Origin: Thiotrichaceae bacterium | GTDB lineage: Bacteria > Pseudomonadota > Gammaproteobacteria > Beggiatoales > Beggiatoaceae | Direction of reading: 5' to 3' | Length of the DNA: 64,000 bases | Assembly (NCBI GenBank): GCA_029939505.1 | Contig: JAOZSV010000005.1 | Span: 477 to 64,476 of the forward strand | Shown: positions 24,311 through 31,700 of the stretch, piece after piece | How positions within the stretch are numbered: the stretch's first letter is position 1 | How the letters are laid out: each line of letters begins with the position of its first letter | Program-made: the position numbers and the translations under genes | Notes under the pieces: model-generated | What the model saw: only the letters and a program-made list of their open reading frames with translations | Databases searched by the model: none | Told to the model about the DNA's origin: nothing

Positions 24311-27300
24311 ATGAGCAATATTTCTGAGAGACTAGAACAACTGTCTCCCGCCCAACAAATGCTGTTCGCGCTTAAAGAAGCGCAAGCTAAGCTCGAAGCA
24401 AGCGAAAATGCCAAAATTGAACCAATTGCTATCATTGGGATGAGTTGTCGTTTTCCGGGGAATGCGAATGACACGCAGGCTTTCTGGGAACTGCTAGACA
24501 ACGGTGTCGATGCCATTACCAATACACCGCCAGAACGATGGGATGTTGATGCTTTTTATGATCCAGATCCGGAAAAACCCGGGAAAATGTACACTCGCTA
24601 TGGTGGATTTTTATCGCAGATTGATCTGTTTGATCCCCGTTTTTTTGGGATTTCTCCCCGCGAGGCGGAAAGTATAGATCCCCAGCAACGGTTGCTATTA
24701 GAGGTCAGTTGGGAGGCACTGGAAAATGCAGGTCAAGTGCCGGATAGACGAGTTGGCAACCGCACGGGTGTATTTATAGGCATTACCTCCAATGATTATA
24801 TACGATTGCTATGGCAGCAGAATGATCGTAGTAAAATGGATAGCTATTTCATCACTGGAAACGCCCTTAATGCCGCAGCGGGACGCCTCTCTTATATCTT
24901 AGGATTGCAAGGCCCGAGTATTGCTATGGATACGGCCTGTTCCTCTTCATTAGTGGCGATCCATCTGGCATGTCAAAGCCTCCGTAATAAAGAATGCTCG
25001 CAAGCCCTTGTTGGCGGAGTCAACCTGATCCTATCGCCAGATATTACCATCAGTTCGTCCCGGGCTAAAATGTTAGCCCCGGATGGACGCTGTAAAACAT
25101 TTGATGCCGCTGCGGATGGTTATATTCGAGGAGAAGGATGTGGGGTGATCTTGCTCAAACGTCTTTCACAAGCTCAAGCGGATAAGGATAATATATTAGC
25201 GGTGATTAGAGGATCAGCCGTCAATCAAGATGGCCCAAGCAGTGGCTTAACGGTTCCTAATGGGGTTGCTCAACAAACACTGATTCGTCAAGCACTTACC
25301 AATGCTCAAGTGAAACCAAAGGAAGTTAGTTATGTAGAAGCCCATGGCACTGGGACATCGTTGGGCGATCCTATTGAAGTCAGTGCTCTAGGTACAGTAT
25401 TCAGTGAAGAACGTTCCTTCAATCAACCTTTAATGATTGGTTCTGTCAAAACGAATGTGGGTCACTTAGAATCTGCAGCAGGTATGGCCGGTATTATCAA
25501 AGTAATACTGTCTCTTCAACACGAAGAGATTCCAGCTCATTTGCACTTTAAACAGCCGAGTTCCCATATTCCTTGGGATAAATTACCCATTAAAGTGGTC
25601 ACCGAGCAAACATCATGGCCACAGGGAGAAAAACGGAGAATTGCCGGTGTCAGTTCCTTTGGTGTTAGTGGTACTAACGCCCATATTGTACTAGAAGGTG
25701 CTGAAGCATTCCAGATTTCATCGGTTCAGGCTTCAGAAGAACCACCGCAAACAACAGTTATTCGTCCGTGGCATTTACTAACACTCTCAGCGCAAACAAG
25801 CGAGGCACTAACACAATTAGCCGAACGATATCAAAATCATTTATCAGTTCATCCCAACTTAACTTTAGGAGATATTTGCTTTAGTGCCAACGCTGGACGT
25901 TCACACTTCAGCCATCGACTCAGTGTGGTAGCAGAATCGCTAACAACAGCGCAGAACCAATTAGCGGCTTTTGTGAAGGGGCAAGAATCCATCGGCATAT
26001 TTCAAGGAAAAGTACCAAAAAATCGTCAGCGCAAAATCGCTTTCCTTTTCACAAGTCAGGGTTCACAATACATTGGCATGGGACAACAACTCTACCAAAC
26101 CCAGCCTACATTTCGCAAAATCATTGACCGTTGTAATGGGATTTTAAGCGACTATTTGGAGGGGCCACCACTCCTTGATGTTCTTTATCCAGCACCCCAT
26201 GCAGAGTCTCGCTATAAGCCTTCCCAAGGAAAGGTTGAGAATGAGAAAGGGTTAGATGACATTGTCTACCAACAATCCGCTTTTTTTATGTTGGGATACG
26301 CTCTTGCTGAGTTATGGAAATCTTGGGGTATAGAACCGGGCATCATCATGGGAAATGGTGTGGGTGAATATGTCGCGGCCTGTGTTGCGGGGGTATTTAG
26401 TGTAGAAGATGGCATGAAACTGACTGTCGAAAGAGGAAAATTAATGTCGGCGCAATTGTTGGGGAATGAAATCGCAGTGATGCCGGGTTCTTATGAACCT
26501 AAGGCAAGCCAAATTACCTTTCAAACACCACGCATTCCTTTGGTTTCTAACGTGACTGGCCAATTGCTCTCGCCAAAACAGGCACTCAATGCTAACTATT
26601 GGCAACAATACCATGATGTTGAGAGCGAAGTATTGAATACGGGAATAAACACCTTGATTGAACAAGGCTATGAACTTTTTTTTGAACTAGGTACTGCGCC
26701 ATCCTTGATGAATTTAGGACAACAGCATCAAACTGTTTGGCTCTCTTCCTTCGTGTCAAAAGAGGATGATTGGCAAGGCTTGTTGAACAGTTTATCGACC
26801 CTATATATACAAGGTATGAATATTAACTGGAAAGGATTTGATAAAGATTATCCACGAAATAGAGTGTCTCTTCCAACCTATCCTTTTCAGCGACAACGTT
26901 GTTGGATTAAGTCTCAAGAATTGCCAACCAGATTCGCTGTGGCACAGCATTCGGATAATAAAGAACTTTCATCTCAATTGAAAATCACCGCGCCTTCTGA
27001 GGAGGGGCAAGTGGCACTGTCAGACAAACAATTATCATCTTCATTGACGATTGCGCCATCAGAACATAAACCTACCGCACAATCTTCTCAAATGGGAAAA
27101 ATATCGGCGGAGGTAGCCCCTAGTACACACAAAACGGAAGATACATCATCTGAGCAACATGGTGTAGAAGCAATTACCCGAATTATGAGGCAACAGCAGC
27201 TAGCCATGTCGGATATGGTATCGAATGTGATTTCCCAGCAATTGGCGTTTTTACGGCGTGATAATGCTCAACCTCAAAACTCAATACATTCAAATGATAA

Positions 27301-28778: not shown

Positions 28779-31700
28779 ATGAATGATGCCGCAAGTGTTA
28801 CCGTATCTGATTTCCCGGTTGAGGTGTCCCCAGAAACAGGACGACGGACCGAGATTATTTCCACATTGTGTTCCCAGATGGCCGATTTACTGGCGACAAT
28901 CCCGTCTGAAGAGGAAATTCATGTTCCTTTCTTAGAAATGGGCGCTAATTCATTGACCTTAATGGAAATTATACGAACCATTGACAATACCTTTAGCCTC
29001 AAAGTGGTTATGCGTCAGTTCTTTGAAGAATTGACTAACATTGATGCGCTAGCAACCTACATTGATCAGAATTTACCCCCAGAAGGGTCTTCAACATCTG
29101 GGCAATCTGAGTCTGAAGTGCGGCCACAGGTAAAACCTATATCGACTGAATCTAACATGAATGAAACGATCACAGAAGAAGCGATCACAGAAACAAGTGC
29201 TCTGGAATTGACTTCCCGGTTGGTTGAAAAAACCAGTAGCGAGTTTAAACAACCAAACAATTTAAATGACATGCTTTCGAGTGGGGAAGAAGCGTCTGCG
29301 TTGGAACAAATTCTTAAGCAACAACTTGAATTGGCCTCTCAAGGGATGTCTCAAGTTGTCTCTCAACAGTTAGAATTTTTGCGCCATAGCGGTTTTTCGA
29401 CAAAACCATTATCGTCATCTGGACCTGATGTTCATCAAACAACCTCTCAAACCGTTGATTTTCAAGCAAGACCACTGCCAGTTGCCGATGCTTATCAGGC
29501 AACGCGCAAGTTAACCCCAGAAAAAATACAAGCGGTTGCTGATGTTTCGTCTACTTTGACGAACAAGCCGAAAAAAAAATCAACGTCTCAGAAATCTGGA
29601 GGTACCACTCCTCCACATCTTTTGAAGGCAACAGAAGTACGGGCGCGTGGGCTGACTCCACAACAACAGTGCCACTTAGAAGCATTGATTGCACGTTATA
29701 CTAAGCGTACCCAAAAATCAAAACAAATGACGCAAACGCATCGTGCCGTTTTAGCTGACAGTAGAGCTTCAGTCGGGTTTCGTTTTACTACCAAAGAAAT
29801 GCTATATCCTATTATTGGAAAGCGTGCTCAGGGCACAAAAATATGGGATATCGATGACAATGAGTACATAGACATTACGATGGGTTTTGGGGTTAATCTG
29901 TTTGGTCACCATCCACCCTTTATTAGCAAAGCCATCAAGGAACAGCCAAACGACACCATACAACTGGGGCCACGTTCTCCAGAGGTGGGCGAAGTGGCCG
30001 AACTGATTGCCGAACTGACTGGCATGGAGAGAATCGCGTTTAGTAATTCAGGTACTGAAGCGGTTATGTCAGCACTACGCTTAGCACGTGCTGCAACTGG
30101 TCGCACTAAAATTGTGCTATTTGAAGGCTCTTACCATGGACATTCTGATGGTACTTTAGTCGCGCCACCTATTCAAGATGGCATGCCCGGTTCTATGCCG
30201 GCTGCTCCTGGTATCCCCCAGTATATTGCCAATGATATTATTGTTTTGGAATATGGTACACCACAAACACTTGAATTAATCAGAACGCATGCCCATGAAC
30301 TCGCGGCGGTGCTAGTTGAACCGGTACAAAGTCGTCACCCGGATTTACAACCAAAGGCGTTTCTCCATGAACTGAGACAATTGACAAAATCAGCGGGGAT
30401 TGCCTTAATTTTCGATGAGATGATTACCGGTTTTCGTATTCATCCAGGTGGCGCACAAGCCTGGTTTGGCGTAGAAGCTGATCTTGCAACTTACGGCAAA
30501 GTCATTGGGGGCGGAATGCCGATTGGTGTTATCGCCGGTAAAGCGGCTTACATGGATGGTATCGACGGAGGTATGTGGCAGTATGACGATGCATCTTATC
30601 CACAAAAGGAAAGAACCATGTTTGGCGGTACTTTTTGTCAACATCCGCTGGCAATGACCACCGCACTAGCAACACTTAAGCATCTGAAAACGCACAGTCC
30701 TGCCCTTCAAGAACGGTTGAATCAACGTACCACGCAATTTGCCGAAACGCTTAATGCGTATTTTGAAGAAAATAAAGTACCTATTCAAGTGGCGCATTTT
30801 AGCTCTATTTTTCATTTTGAATTTTCAGGCAATATGGAACTACTGTTCTATCATCTGCTTGAAAAAGGTGTCTATATTTGGGAATGGCGTAATTGTTTTT
30901 TGTCTTCCGCACATACCGATGCTGACATTGAATATATCATTCAGGCCATTAAGGAAAGTTGCGAAGAATTACGATCTGGTGGTTTTTTACCCGCACATTC
31001 AAAAAGTGAGAAAGGATTAGAAAACGTATCAGGGATAACGAAAAGTCAAGATAAAGATAGCATTACCGAACTATCCAGTAAAGAGGATCAAGAGGGAAAC
31101 CAGGTTGAATTGACATCACGGAAGGACGTGACATCGATCCCAACGGTTTCAAAAGCGTCTTCCAAGCAACCTGATAAATTACCTTTAACTGAAGCACAAA
31201 GACAACTGTGGGTTTTGAGCCAAATAGGGCAAGAAGGTTCGCTTGCCTATAATGTTTACACAACCCTTCAATTACAGGGCCCATTTCAACTGTTGGCAAT
31301 GTGTCAAGCTGTACAGAAAGTTGTCGAACAGCATGAAGCGCTCAGGACAATTATCAGCCATAATGGTGATTTTCAGCAGATTTTGCCAGAATTGAAGATA
31401 GATATCCCCGTGCTTGATTTTTCAACAACGAGTGATGAAGGTCAATCTGAGGTGAATGCTTGGTTTATAAGTGAAAGCCAAAAGCCGTTTAACCTAAACC
31501 AAGGTCCACTTTTTAGGGCCTCTATTCTCAAGTTGGAAGAACAGCACCATTTGCTGGTTCTGACAGCGCATCATATTGTCGTTGATGGTTTTTCAATAGG
31601 CATCGTGCTACAAGAAATAACCTCGTTCTATTCAGCCGAATGTCAAGGCACCAAAACTCAACTGGACTCGCCCATGCAGTTCAGTGAATATGTACAGTGG

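What the first reader, a model, noticed from the sequence alone, without database searches (positions are those of the whole stretch)
24311..29000. Aminotransferase module carries a dead, internally deleted AT followed in cis by a second AT, and is split between AT and carrier domain
Seen, for the first AT after the KS:
- It has GNGVG (26351-26365) where the four upstream paralogues have GHSVG.
- It has FTSQGSQ in place of FTGQGSQ.
- It lacks about 55-60 residues, including the small subdomain and VSHAFHSPL.
- It keeps the flanking linker elements (LLTLSAQTSEAL..., YPFQRQRCW).

Seen, downstream of it:
- A low-complexity stretch has an imperfect tandem repeat (SSQLKITAPSE / SSSLTIAPSE, about 26960-27070).
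- A helix ITRIMRQQQLAMSDMVSNVISQQLAFLRR (about 27172-27258) recurs as LEQILKQQLELASQGMSQVVSQQLEFLRH in front of the AMT domain of the next protein (about 29301-29387).
- A second complete linker-plus-AT unit follows (GYSLG 27986-28000, SHAFHS).
- The ORF stops right after it. The cognate carrier domain opens the next ORF after a 76-nt gap, with no recognisable docking elements.

Inference:
- This looks like a natural AT replacement by insertion, with the dead AT kept as KS scaffold.
- The insertion may have been copied from, or shared with, the terminal PKS module.
- I know of no described KS-AT0-AT | ACP-AMT arrangement.
Basis: partly seen in the sequence, partly recalled or inferred. Interest (0 to 1): 0.78.

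Follow-up and report, generated by a model that had tools for sequence, protein, structure and literature searches.

The report
Dead acyltransferase backed by second one
One polyketide-synthase gene keeps a broken loading domain as scaffolding and carries a second, working one. The second most likely installs a hydroxylated building block, and the same design recurs in about twenty protein clusters from several bacterial groups.

Summary
ORF 24311-28702 encodes KS, a dead AT0, a conserved amphipathic helix, and a second complete linker-plus-AT (AT2). AT0 has GNGVG, lacks the whole small subdomain and has no catalytic His. The ORF then stops, and the cognate ACP opens the next ORF (ACP-helix-AMT-C-A-PCP).

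It is not an artefact or a one-off. About 20 protein clusters, down to 36% identity, share the architecture and the same stop point, and an ACP-first partner gene was found in all eight loci where it was in reach. A Candidatus Parabeggiatoa orthologue (93% protein identity) is among them.

AT2 and the terminal-module AT belong to the GYSxG clade, whose best solved relative is ZmaA-AT, the hydroxymalonyl-ACP-specific AT. Of 80 genomic loci of this clade, 48 have an FkbK/FkbI/FkbH cassette within 10 kb. The window carries that cassette plus a free ACP at 54.8-58.3 kb.

The module therefore most likely builds a 3-amino-2-hydroxy acyl unit from a glycolate extender.

I rate it a new variant of known kinds, of moderate interest. 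The extender choice and any docking role of the helix are inferred, not shown.

The parts
24419..25696 (+). KS domain of ORF5 (aa 37-462); the Cys and both His motifs are present (DTACSSS, EAHGTGT, NVGHLE)
   Evidence: Pfam ketoacyl-synt plus Ketoacyl-synt_C; sequence
25772..25981 (+). First KS-AT linker domain (LD1, aa 488-557)
   Evidence: Pfam CurL-like_PKS_C / RhiE-like_linker; mean pairwise identity 51% across the family
26036..26800 (+). AT0: dead acyltransferase. It has GNGVG at 26351-26365, an FTSQGSQ motif and Arg to Lys. The small subdomain and HAFH are deleted (about 71 aa).
   Evidence: Alignments. Ser is replaced by Gly in 12 of the 15 members that keep an AT0, and the small subdomain is missing in all. 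AF2 model pLDDT is mostly 80-96 here.
26801..26950 (+). Post-AT linker of AT0 (aa 831-880; LPTYPFQRQRCW)
   Evidence: 51% mean identity across the family
26951..27166 (+).
   Evidence: 10-19% identity across the family; dN/dS about 0.7; no tandem repeat by TRF
27167..27265 (+). Conserved amphipathic helix, copy 1 (aa 953-985, ITRIMRQQQLAMSDMVSNVISQQLAFLRR)
   Evidence: HMM hits in every family member; 56% mean identity between low-complexity flanks of 10-19%
27347..27610 (+). Second KS-AT linker domain (LD2, aa 1013-1100), with no KS in front of it
   Evidence: Second CurL-like_PKS_C / RhiE-like_linker stretch; aligns to the ZmaA N-terminal linker
27611..28699 (+). AT2: intact acyltransferase of the GYSxG clade. 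It has GYSLG at 27986-28000, GVGDHY, the FDLRKM insertion and TSHAFHS. The ORF stops right after it.
   Evidence: Pfam Acyl_transf_1. Best PDB relative is ZmaA-AT 4QBU at 337 bits; the next best is 255 bits. Clade tree.
28703..28778 (.). 76-nt AT-rich intergenic gap after TGA TAG
   Evidence: The orthologue has a 181-nt gap. In other family members the partner gene overlaps, is adjacent, or lies kilobases away.
28845..29081 (+). ACP of the split module (ORF6 aa 23-101, GANSL)
   Evidence: Pfam PP-binding / ACP_SdgA_C
29298..29393 (+). Conserved helix, copy 2 (ORF6 aa 174-205, LEQILKQQLELASQGMSQVVSQQLEFLRH)
   Evidence: Helix HMM E = 2.9e-13; present in all 8 partner proteins examined; not covered by the MycA AMT structures
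29649..30995 (+). Aminotransferase (AMT) domain of ORF6
   Evidence: Pfam Aminotran_3; MycA AMT 6KFM at 563 bits
31173..34292 (+). C-A-PCP of ORF6, which takes the beta-amino acyl chain into the peptide
   Evidence: Pfam Condensation, AMP-binding, PP-binding
49293..50333 (+). AT of the terminal PKS module (ORF8): same GYSxG subclade as AT2 (GYSIG, GLGDHY, YHAFHS)
   Evidence: 62% aa and 66.7% nt identity to AT2; ZmaA-AT is the best PDB hit at 356 bits; tree
54816..55706 (+). FkbK-like 3-hydroxyacyl-CoA dehydrogenase of the glycolate-extender cassette
   Evidence: Pfam 3HCDH_N / 3HCDH; homologues lie next to GYS-clade ATs in 42 loci
55820..56056 (+). Free-standing 78-aa ACP, the presumed extender-unit carrier
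   Evidence: Translation; an ACP in the same position in L003, L005 and L006
56116..57288 (+). FkbI-like acyl-CoA / acyl-ACP dehydrogenase
   Evidence: Pfam Acyl-CoA_dh
57285..58337 (+). FkbH-family glyceryl-ACP-forming phosphatase/transferase
   Evidence: NCBIfam TIGR01686 FkbH domain, 277 bits against a cut-off of 147

Best explanation
ORF5 and ORF6 together form one split PKS extension module.

ORF5 supplies three things:
- an active KS;
- AT0, a relic of the module's original malonyl-type AT, which has lost its nucleophile, its His and its whole small subdomain, and is kept because the KS-LD-AT-linker assembly is the structural core of a cis-AT module;
- a second linker-plus-AT unit (AT2), tethered through a long flexible spacer.

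AT2 belongs to the GYSxG, ZmaA-AT-like clade. Proposed steps:
1. AT2 takes a hydroxymalonyl unit from the free-standing 78-aa ACP. That unit is made from a glycolytic intermediate by the FkbH/FkbK/FkbI-like enzymes at 54.8-58.3 kb. No O-methyltransferase is present, so the product is hydroxymalonyl rather than methoxymalonyl.
2. AT2 transfers the unit to the ACP at the N-terminus of ORF6.
3. The ORF5 KS condenses it with the hydroxy-trienoyl chain coming from ORF1-4.
4. The ORF6 AMT converts the beta-keto group to an amine.
5. The C domain passes the resulting 3-amino-2-hydroxy acyl unit into the peptide.

The terminal module (ORF8) uses the same AT type for a second glycolate unit.

The conserved helix present in both ORF5 and ORF6 is the best candidate for holding the two polypeptides together.

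Status of each part:
- Shown: domain anatomy, the dead state of AT0, family conservation, clade membership, and the clade-cassette association.
- Inferred: the identity of the extender, the scaffold role of AT0, and the docking role of the helix.
For: Dead AT0:
- Ser to Gly, Arg to Lys, and the small subdomain with HAFH deleted.
- The same state is seen across the family. Gly replaces Ser in 12 of the 15 members that keep an AT0, and none has the small subdomain.

AT0 is retained under constraint:
- Mean pairwise identity is 36%, against 10-19% for the adjacent spacers. LD1 and the post-AT linker are at 51%.
- AT0 is 95% identical to the Parabeggiatoa orthologue, with dN/dS 0.32.
- The AF2 model (pLDDT 89.2, pTM 0.88) matches the CurL KS-AT didomain at TM 0.86.
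- In one member (P0014) AT0 is wholly excised but LD and the post-AT linker remain. This shows the direction of decay.

AT2 is the working AT:
- It has all catalytic motifs.
- dN/dS is 0.09.
- Family identity is 60%.

Extender class:
- AT2 and O8_AT hit ZmaA-AT best, at 337 and 356 bits against 255-263 bits for the next hit. The upstream O4_AT hits CurL best (579 bits) and ZmaA at only 235 bits.
- GYSxG is shared with ZmaA-AT (hydroxymalonyl-ACP) and ZmaF (aminomalonyl-ACP) (PMC4207774).
- The FabD-R190-equivalent position is L/V/I in 19 of 19 ATs of the AT2 subclade, and Lys in ORF1-4 ATs.
- 48 of 80 genomic loci of the GYS clade carry FkbK/FkbI/FkbH genes within 10 kb, at a median of 3.9 kb. 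Among loci with full flanks it is 47 of 66.
- The cassette is present next to family members in L003/L004, L005 and L006, and in the window.

Split and partner:
- An ACP-first partner protein was found in the window, L007, L087, L088, L089, L029, L005 and L006. AMT is confirmed in six of them; L089 and L006 are cut by the contig or locus end.

Chemical plausibility:
- Anabaenolysin contains a 3-amino-2-hydroxy polyenoic acid. It also contains a C-terminal 2-hydroxyacetic unit identical to that of amicoumacin C (PMC3400675).
Against: - AT2 and the whole GYS clade keep HAFH, the motif usually read as malonyl-CoA specificity, whereas ZmaA-AT has GAAH.
- Only the first position of the 'RXR' carrier-recognition motif is hydrophobic. 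The third is Arg.
- The clade-cassette association has no matched control set of non-GYS loci. Clusters usually contain several ATs, so the association assigns the cassette to the clade statistically rather than to AT2 itself.
- In the window the cassette is 26 kb from AT2 and directly downstream of ORF8, which has its own GYS-type AT.
- The AF2 alignment contained ordinary KS-AT proteins, so the canonical didomain pose is partly imposed.
- dN/dS for AT0 rests on very few substitutions (dS 0.066).
- Helix pairing shows no significant within-locus covariation (permutation p = 0.07).
- A shorter form of the helix also occurs in unsplit KS-AT-ACP-helix-AMT modules and in many ACP-helix-AMT proteins whose KS partner has no helix.
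Confidence: 0.68

Rival explanations
1. AT2 is simply a malonyl-CoA AT that replaced a broken one. The hydroxymalonyl-ACP cassette serves only the terminal module (ORF8), so the module makes a plain 3-amino acyl unit.
For: AT2 keeps HAFH and an Arg at the third RXR position. The cassette sits directly after ORF8, 26 kb from AT2. Many AMT modules use ordinary malonyl ATs (P0077, P0080, L074).
Against: AT2 is in the same subclade as O8_AT. That subclade is sister to ATs found next to FkbH cassettes in 48 of 80 loci. In L005 the KS-AT0-AT2 gene opens the cluster and the cassette follows within 2.5 kb, with no other AT in the 24 kb held. If a malonyl AT were all that was needed, repairing or keeping the original CurL-type AT would do. 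The consistent pairing of a dead malonyl-type AT with a GYS-type AT across about 20 clusters argues for a change of substrate class.
Confidence: 0.18
2. AT0 is not a passive scaffold. It has acquired a non-catalytic function, for example as a landing pad for the extender-carrying ACP, for AT2, or for the ORF6 ACP.
For: The Ser-to-Gly change is nearly uniform (GxGVGEY) rather than random. The helix bearing it (ALAELWQSWGI...GVGEYVAACVAGV) is the best-conserved part of AT0. ACP-linked extenders need an extra protein-protein contact (PMC4207774).
Against: P0014 lacks AT0 altogether, and P0006, P0012 and P0016 have strongly degraded cores, yet all keep the rest of the architecture. The small subdomain, which Park et al. 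propose as the carrier-ACP binding surface, is exactly the part that is missing.
Confidence: 0.12
3. The arrangement is an assembly or annotation artefact, or a decaying pseudogene cluster.
For: The source is a metagenome-assembled contig. An IS630-like element lies 3 kb beyond the cluster.
Against: The identical protein occurs in an independent assembly. There is an orthologue with 93% protein identity and the same stop point. About 20 clusters share the domain order and C-terminus. All eight large ORFs are intact. AT2 and O8_AT share only 66.7% nt identity. KS and AT2 are under strong purifying selection.
Confidence: 0.02

Closest known systems
ZmaA-AT (zwittermicin A synthase; PDB 4QBU), the hydroxymalonyl-ACP-specific cis-AT
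   Same: It is the best solved relative of AT2 and O8_AT. It shares the GYSxG nucleophile motif, an ordered N-terminal KS-AT-type linker, a hydrophobic residue at the FabD-R190 position, and a gene cluster with an FkbH-type pathway and a free ACP (PMC4207774).
   Different: ZmaA-AT sits in the normal position after its own KS. It has GAAH where AT2 has HAFH, and it lacks the about 30-aa 'FDLRKML' insertion of the AT2/GYS clade. No dead AT precedes it.
trans-AT PKS modules, and AT-null cis-AT modules complemented by a separate AT (ZmaF, OzmC, KirCII, ClbG-type; DEBS AT-null plus MAT)
   Same: A KS keeps only a non-functional remnant after it, and the extender is delivered by an AT that is not in the canonical slot. 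Some such ATs are dedicated to ACP-linked extenders (PMC6164871; PMC9057759). Family member P0014, with LD and post-AT linker but no AT core, looks like a trans-AT-style KS.
   Different: Here the substitute AT is covalently tethered to the same polypeptide and serves one module. The relic still has the large AT subdomain. All other modules of the cluster are normal cis-AT.
OzmM (oxazolomycin) tandem AT1-AT2
   Same: Two ATs lie on one polypeptide in a pathway that also uses an FkbH-type extender, and one of the two is dispensable (PMC9057759).
   Different: OzmM is a free-standing trans-AT protein without a KS. Its AT1 still has its serine and full fold. The ACP-linked extender is thought to be loaded by a third protein, OzmC.
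MycA/iturin-type and cyanobacterial lipopeptide KS-AT-ACP-AMT modules (puwainaphycin-like)
   Same: They make a beta-amino fatty acyl unit from a FAAL-primed chain. The AMT is closely related to the MycA AMT (563 bits). The AT|ACP split also occurs there, for example in the L090 locus, whose AMT protein carries the name Anabaena sp. CCY 9613.
   Different: Those modules use one active GHSxG malonyl AT. Where a 2-hydroxyl is present, relatives carry a luciferase-like monooxygenase domain instead (P0270, P0293, P0298), not a glycolate extender.
Anabaenolysin pathway (product chemistry)
   Same: The product has a 3-amino-2-hydroxy polyenoic fatty acid with a conjugated triene, plus a C-terminal amino acid extended by a 2-hydroxyacetate unit (PMC3400675). 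This is the pattern predicted from ORF1-5/6 and ORF8.
   Different: Anabaenolysin has 2 proteinogenic residues, whereas this cluster has 5 A domains. ORF4 here lacks a DH, so a 5-hydroxyl is predicted. I could not read the abl gene-cluster paper, and no Anabaena protein with the KS-AT0-AT2 layout appeared in the searches.

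Membership tests
Unnamed KS-AT0-helix-LD-AT2 protein family (P0001-P0016, P0104, P0168, P0182, P0251) | Domain order KS, LD, AT relic without small subdomain, post-AT linker, helix, LD, GYSxG AT; the protein ends right after the AT and has no ACP | tested here: met
   Alignment and motif table. The window protein is P0001.
Unnamed KS-AT0-helix-LD-AT2 protein family (P0001-P0016, P0104, P0168, P0182, P0251) | Partner gene in the locus that starts with ACP-helix-AMT | tested here: met
   Window ORF6. The same holds in L005, L007, L029, L087 and L088; in L089 and L006 the partner is cut before the AMT could be seen.
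ATs specific for ACP-linked glycolate-type extenders (ZmaA-AT / methoxymalonyl-ACP AT type) | Closest characterised relative is an ACP-linked-extender AT | tested here: met
   ZmaA 4QBU is the top PDB hit for AT2 (337 bits) and O8_AT (356 bits), but only ninth for O4_AT.
ATs specific for ACP-linked glycolate-type extenders (ZmaA-AT / methoxymalonyl-ACP AT type) | Tyr in place of His in GHSxG, as in ZmaA-AT and ZmaF | tested here: met
   GYSLG in AT2 and GYSIG in O8_AT; Table 2 of PMC4207774.
ATs specific for ACP-linked glycolate-type extenders (ZmaA-AT / methoxymalonyl-ACP AT type) | Hydrophobic residues in the RXR (MXW) carrier-recognition motif | tested here: inconclusive
   The first position is L/V/I in 19 of 19 AT2-subclade ATs, against Lys in ORF1-4 ATs. 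The third position is Arg in 18 of 19.
ATs specific for ACP-linked glycolate-type extenders (ZmaA-AT / methoxymalonyl-ACP AT type) | YASH-position motif that differs from the malonyl-CoA motif HAFH (ZmaA GAAH) | tested here: not met
   AT2 has TSHAFHS and O8_AT has SYHAFHS.
ATs specific for ACP-linked glycolate-type extenders (ZmaA-AT / methoxymalonyl-ACP AT type) | FkbH / FkbK / FkbI genes and a free ACP in the same cluster | tested here: met
   Window 54816-58337; 48 of 80 clade loci within 10 kb.
ATs specific for ACP-linked glycolate-type extenders (ZmaA-AT / methoxymalonyl-ACP AT type) | Demonstrated transfer from hydroxymalonyl-ACP and discrimination against malonyl-CoA | not testable with these tools
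   This needs an enzyme assay.
Canonical cis-AT PKS module | One active AT between KS and the processing/ACP domains, on one polypeptide with its ACP | tested here: not met
   The AT in the canonical slot is dead, the active AT is appended after the post-AT linker, and the ACP is on the next protein.
trans-AT PKS | AT-less modules served by a free-standing AT protein | tested here: not met
   AT2 is fused to the KS protein. ORF1-4 and ORF8 have their own cis ATs.
PKS aminotransferase (AMT) module, MycA type | Class III PLP aminotransferase domain directly after the module's ACP, followed by an NRPS C domain | tested here: met
   Pfam order in ORF6; MycA AMT 6KFM at 563 bits.

The most novel reading that the evidence does not exclude
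The KS-AT0-helix-AT2 / ACP-helix-AMT pair is a dedicated two-protein device for making 2-hydroxy-3-amino acids. In this reading:
- the matched internal helices form a new kind of non-terminal docking element that assembles a module split between AT and ACP;
- the AT relic has been repurposed as part of the interface that brings the extender-carrying ACP, AT2 and the acceptor ACP together.

It would then be a natural blueprint for adding a tethered AT of a different substrate class to a cis-AT module without touching the KS-AT core.
Probability: 0.25. Interest if true: 0.72.

Novelty: new variant of a known kind. Interest (0 to 1): 0.58.

Why it matters
Swapping AT domains to change the building block of a polyketide is a central and often failing goal of PKS engineering, because the AT is structurally welded to the KS.

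This family shows a solution that evolution has used repeatedly:
- leave the old AT in place as an inert brace;
- hang a new linker-plus-AT of another substrate class on a flexible tether after the post-AT linker;
- let the carrier domain sit on a separate protein.

Members in different states of decay give a graded series from cis-AT towards a trans-AT-like KS. Some have a full large subdomain, some a degraded core, and one has the AT excised.

The work also gives a practical genome-mining rule. GYSxG ATs with the FDLRKM insertion mark glycolate-type extender use, and this module type predicts 2-hydroxy-3-amino acid units. Such units are pharmacophores in protease-inhibitor-like and membrane-active lipopeptides.

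Tried and rejected
1. Tandem repeat in the spacer. TRF found nothing at 26800-27400 and the repeat finder found no meaningful DNA repeat. The 'imperfect repeat' is dropped as a feature.

2. Misassembled copy of the terminal AT. Rejected: 66.7% nt identity.

3. Frameshift joining ORF5 and ORF6. Rejected: the ORF ends in TGA TAG, further stop codons follow in the gap, and the split is conserved in all eight loci where the partner was in reach.

4. Helix co-evolution test. Own-pair against cross-pair identity over 8 loci gave permutation p = 0.07. This is not significant, so there is no covariation support for docking.

5. Helix as a feature exclusive to split modules. Rejected. A shorter form lies between ACP and AMT in unsplit modules (L074, L079, P0200). 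It also occurs in KS-less LD-AT-ACP-helix-AMT proteins. It is absent from 9 other KS-AT-ACP-AMT proteins and from the MycA AMT structures.

6. dN/dS against the Parabeggiatoa orthologue. AT0 gave 0.32, but dS is only 0.066. I treat this as weak and rely on family-level conservation instead.

7. Single-sequence AlphaFold of KS-AT0. pLDDT was 32 and the model is unusable. It was repeated with a 70-row alignment.

8. Exhaustive representative search to size the family. The top 150 were swamped by giant multi-AT synthases. Only P0168, P0182 and P0251 were gained.

9. The free class III aminotransferase at 53542 as part of the extender pathway. Rejected: it is an EctB-type diaminobutyrate transaminase.

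10. Literature. No paper in the held library describes KS-AT0-AT or links hydroxymalonyl extenders with AMT modules. The anabaenolysin cluster paper is not held.

11. The cluster around the Anabaena-named AMT protein P0280 (locus L090) was checked as a possible anabaenolysin cluster. It is a different lipopeptide cluster with a normal active AT.

Full report
**Setting**

The window (GC about 43%) holds one hybrid PKS/NRPS cluster on the + strand:

| ORF | Coordinates | Domains |
|---|---|---|
| ORF1 | 549-8147 | FAAL-ACP-KS-AT-DH-KR-ACP |
| ORF2 | 8160-13721 | KS-AT-DH-KR-ACP |
| ORF3 | 13745-19327 | KS-AT-DH-KR-ACP |
| ORF4 | 19329-24305 | KS-AT-KR-ACP |
| ORF5 | 24311-28702 | the finding |
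| ORF6 | 28779-34409 | ACP-AMT-C-A-PCP |
| ORF7 | 34420-44319 | three C-A-PCP modules |
| ORF8 | 44298-53159 | C-A-PCP-KS-AT-KR-ACP-TE |

Downstream genes:
- an EctB-type diaminobutyrate transaminase at 53542-54789;
- a 3-hydroxyacyl-CoA dehydrogenase at 54816-55706;
- an unlisted 78-aa ACP at 55820-56056;
- an acyl-CoA dehydrogenase at 56116-57288;
- an FkbH-domain protein at 57285-58337 (TIGR01686, 277 bits against a cut-off of 147).

The last four are the classic set for an ACP-linked glycolate extender. There is no O-methyltransferase, so the expected product is hydroxymalonyl-ACP. The naming of that pathway rests on established knowledge of the Fkb and Zma systems.

The contig is JAPOGY010000075.1 of GCA_029940435.1. 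The nearest species-level genome is a Candidatus Parabeggiatoa MAG. Its match is 90% identical over the helix-AT2 query segment, and the full-length ORF5 orthologue is 93% identical.

**Checking the observation**

- Pfam sees two linker domains and two AT stretches in ORF5, and no carrier domain.
- Aligned with the four upstream ATs, AT0 has GNGVG for GHSVG, FTSQGSQ for FTGQGSQ, and Lys for the conserved Arg.
- A deletion of about 71 residues runs from just after the Arg-bearing helix to just after HAFHSPLM.
- By FabD numbering (my own knowledge: small subdomain about 124-206, His201), that is the ferredoxin-like small subdomain plus the catalytic His.
- The linker domain and the post-AT linker LPTYPFQRQRCW are intact.
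- AT2 has GYSLG, TSHAFHS and a full-length fold.
- The ORF ends TGA TAG. An AT-rich 76-nt gap containing further stop codons follows, and ORF6 opens with the ACP.

Only the 'imperfect tandem repeat' fails. It is low-complexity spacer with no DNA-level repeat.

**Not an artefact, and not unique**

The identical protein is found in an independent Logan assembly.

A search with the AT0-to-AT2 segment found proteins covering 99-100% of it at 36-50% identity and of similar length (P0003-P0016). A closer relative, P0002, is 74% identical over its best local match. Four more members turned up later: P0104, P0168, P0182 and P0251.

Family members share these features:
- the AT relic lacks the small subdomain wherever a relic is kept;
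- Gly replaces the nucleophilic Ser in 12 of the 15 that keep an AT0 (GHGVG, GQGVG, GRGVG, GYGVG, GSGVG, GCGVG);
- the post-AT linker is present;
- the helix is present;
- a GYSxG AT is present;
- the proteins aligned terminate at the same place, a few residues after the AT.

P0014 has lost the AT core completely but keeps LD and the post-AT linker. P0011 lacks the second LD.

The partner gene starts with an ACP in each of these loci, and an AMT follows wherever enough sequence is held:
- immediately downstream in the window, L007, L087, L088 and L089;
- one gene away in L029;
- after the extender cassette in L005 and L006.

The AT|ACP split is therefore a conserved property of the system.

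**What AT0 is**

Across nine divergent members, mean pairwise identity is:

| Region | Mean pairwise identity |
|---|---|
| KS | 63% |
| AT2 | 60% |
| Helix | 56% |
| LD1 | 51% |
| Post-AT linker | 51% |
| LD2 | 43% |
| AT0 core | 36% |
| Two spacers | 10-19% |

AT0 is thus relaxed but clearly not free.

Against the Parabeggiatoa orthologue, AT0 is 95% identical with dN/dS 0.32. KS gives 0.16, AT2 0.09 and the spacers 0.7-1.5. Divergence is low, so I give this little weight.

An AlphaFold model of aa 1-885, built on a 70-row alignment, has pLDDT 89.2 and pTM 0.88. Confidence dips only at the AT0 insertion loop and at the deletion scar. The model superposes on the CurL KS-AT didomain with TM 0.86. 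The alignment contained normal KS-AT proteins, so this shows compatibility with the canonical pose rather than proving it.

**What AT2 is**

- AT2 and the ORF8 AT are 62% identical to each other over the full linker-AT unit, but only 36-40% identical to the ORF1-4 ATs.
- Their best solved relative is ZmaA-AT, at 337 and 356 bits, well ahead of the next hits (255-263 bits).
- The ORF4 AT hits CurL at 579 bits and ZmaA at only 235 bits.
- ZmaA-AT is the biochemically characterised hydroxymalonyl-ACP AT. [quoted passage not shown]
- AT2 has GYSLG.
- The FabD-R190-equivalent residue is L/V/I in all 19 ATs of its subclade and Lys in ORF1-4. The third motif position, however, stays Arg, and the YASH position stays HAFH.

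A genome-wide pattern scan returned 80 loci, all with a GYSxGEY AT. Of these, 48 carry FkbK, FkbI or FkbH homologues within the 10-kb flanks. Among loci with complete flanks it is 47 of 66, and the median distance is 3.9 kb. The cassette also sits beside family members in L003/L004, L005 and L006.

A neighbour-joining tree, without bootstrap, places all family AT2s plus O8_AT in one subclade. Its sister group is the cyanobacterial cassette-associated cis-ATs.

I conclude, with about 70% confidence, that AT2 loads hydroxymalonate from the free ACP. The retained HAFH motif and the lack of a matched control set are the main reservations.

**The helix**

An HMM of the 33-residue amphipathic helix hits every family member. 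It also hits ORF6 between ACP and AMT (E = 2.9e-13) and the corresponding position in all eight partner proteins.

The helix is not part of the AMT fold as solved for MycA. It is absent from nine ordinary KS-AT-ACP-AMT proteins.

It is not exclusive to split systems, however:
- a shorter version lies between ACP and AMT in unsplit modules (L074, L079, P0200);
- the full version occurs in KS-less LD-AT-ACP-helix-AMT proteins of Nodularia, Scytonema and Tolypothrix;
- it also occurs in stand-alone ACP-helix-AMT proteins.

Within-locus helix pairs are not significantly more alike than cross-locus pairs (p = 0.07).

The helix is therefore an older ACP-AMT linker element. The unusual point is its presence in ORF5, about 85 residues after the post-AT linker, where an ACP-sized piece is missing relative to unsplit modules. 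This suggests ORF5 descends from a KS-AT-ACP-helix-AMT gene. Homotypic association of the two copies is the most economical way to dock ORF6 onto ORF5, which has no C-terminal docking domain. This remains a hypothesis.

**Mechanism proposed**

1. FkbH, FkbK and FkbI build hydroxymalonyl on the 78-aa ACP.
2. AT2 Ser1228 picks it up and transfers it to the ORF6 ACP.
3. The ORF5 KS condenses it with the ORF4 product.
4. The AMT aminates C-3.
5. The C domain passes on a 3-amino-2,5-dihydroxy-6,8,10-trienoic acyl unit. This structure is predicted from the reductive domains of ORF1-4.
6. ORF8 adds a second glycolate unit to the last amino acid.

The same two motifs, a 3-amino-2-hydroxy polyenoic acid and a 2-hydroxyacetate-extended amino acid, are found in anabaenolysin (PMC3400675). 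The chemistry is therefore precedented, although this cluster has five A domains rather than the two proteinogenic residues of anabaenolysin.

**Comparison and novelty**

The ingredients are all known:
- ACP-linked-extender ATs (ZmaA-AT);
- AMT modules (MycA);
- split modules;
- inactive domains;
- tandem ATs with a dispensable member in trans-AT systems (OzmM; PMC9057759);
- laboratory complementation of AT-null modules (PMC6164871).

What I could not find described is their combination: a cis-AT module that keeps a gutted AT in the canonical slot and carries a tethered second linker-AT of a different substrate class, as a conserved family with a matched ACP-first partner.

The literature I could search is limited, and the anabaenolysin cluster paper was unavailable. 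I therefore rate the finding a new variant of known kinds, with interest 0.58.

Noticed in passing
window 53542-54789: This is an EctB-type diaminobutyrate-2-oxoglutarate transaminase (TIGR02407, 659 bits). It lies between the last synthetase gene and the extender cassette and probably supplies 2,4-diaminobutyrate to one of the five A domains. About 50%-identical homologues lie within 10 kb of GYS-clade ATs in ten other loci: L016, L018, L023, L028, L032, L035, L050, L052, L067 and L083.
   Followed up: partly
window 55820-56056: A 78-aa free-standing ACP (MTTDEILEK...) lies between the FkbK-like and FkbI-like genes. It is too short for the ORF list and is the presumed carrier of the extender unit.
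   Followed up: partly
window 61141-62250: An IS630-like transposase is split into two ORFs (HTH_32 at 61141-61623, DDE_3 at 61681-62250), just beyond a P-type heavy-metal ATPase (58621-60705). GC drops to 36-38% after 60 kb, which probably marks the cluster edge.
   Followed up: no
window 24311-28702 versus L007 7127-11533: Synonymous divergence from the Candidatus Parabeggiatoa orthologue is very uneven along one gene: KS 0.05, AT0 0.07, AT2 0.19, post-AT linker 0.42, helix 0.79. This suggests mosaic history or recombination within the gene.
   Followed up: no
whole window; L007, L041: The closest genome is a large sulfur bacterium (Candidatus Parabeggiatoa, Thiotrichales). Nearly all relatives of the ATs and of the cassette are Nostocales cyanobacteria. 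Other family members are GC-rich, or are labelled Planctomycetes, KSB3 or Pseudomonadota. The cluster type appears to move between phyla.
   Followed up: partly
P0272 (L091 2928-6440), P0276, P0282, P0353, P0275: KS-less proteins with the layout LD-AT(GHSxG)-ACP-AMT, about 1080-1240 aa, occur in Nodularia NIES-3585, Scytonema hofmannii PCC 7110, Okeanomitos, Tolypothrix and Parabeggiatoa; all but the Parabeggiatoa one (P0275) also have the helix between ACP and AMT. This is a different way of cutting an AMT module. In Nodularia the gene follows a C-A-PCP-TE gene.
   Followed up: partly
P0022, P0045, P0048: GYS-clade AT modules are fused to an FkbM-family methyltransferase domain (KS-AT-ACP-MT, or LD-AT-ACP-MT). 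This may be in-line O-methylation of the glycolate hydroxyl.
   Followed up: no
P0017 (Chloroflexi MAG): This is a genuine tandem duplication of an active linker-AT unit: two near-identical GHSVGEL ... VSHAFHS ATs in a row after one KS. It contrasts with the dead-plus-live pair studied here.
   Followed up: no
P0270, P0293, P0298, P0317: ACP-AMT proteins are fused to a luciferase-like FMN monooxygenase domain. This is apparently the alternative route, by oxidation rather than a glycolate extender, to 2-hydroxy-3-amino acids.
   Followed up: no
window 44298-44319: ORF7 and ORF8 overlap by 22 nt. ORF8 opens with a TubC_N-type docking domain, whereas ORF5/ORF6 have no terminal docking domains at their junction.
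   Followed up: no
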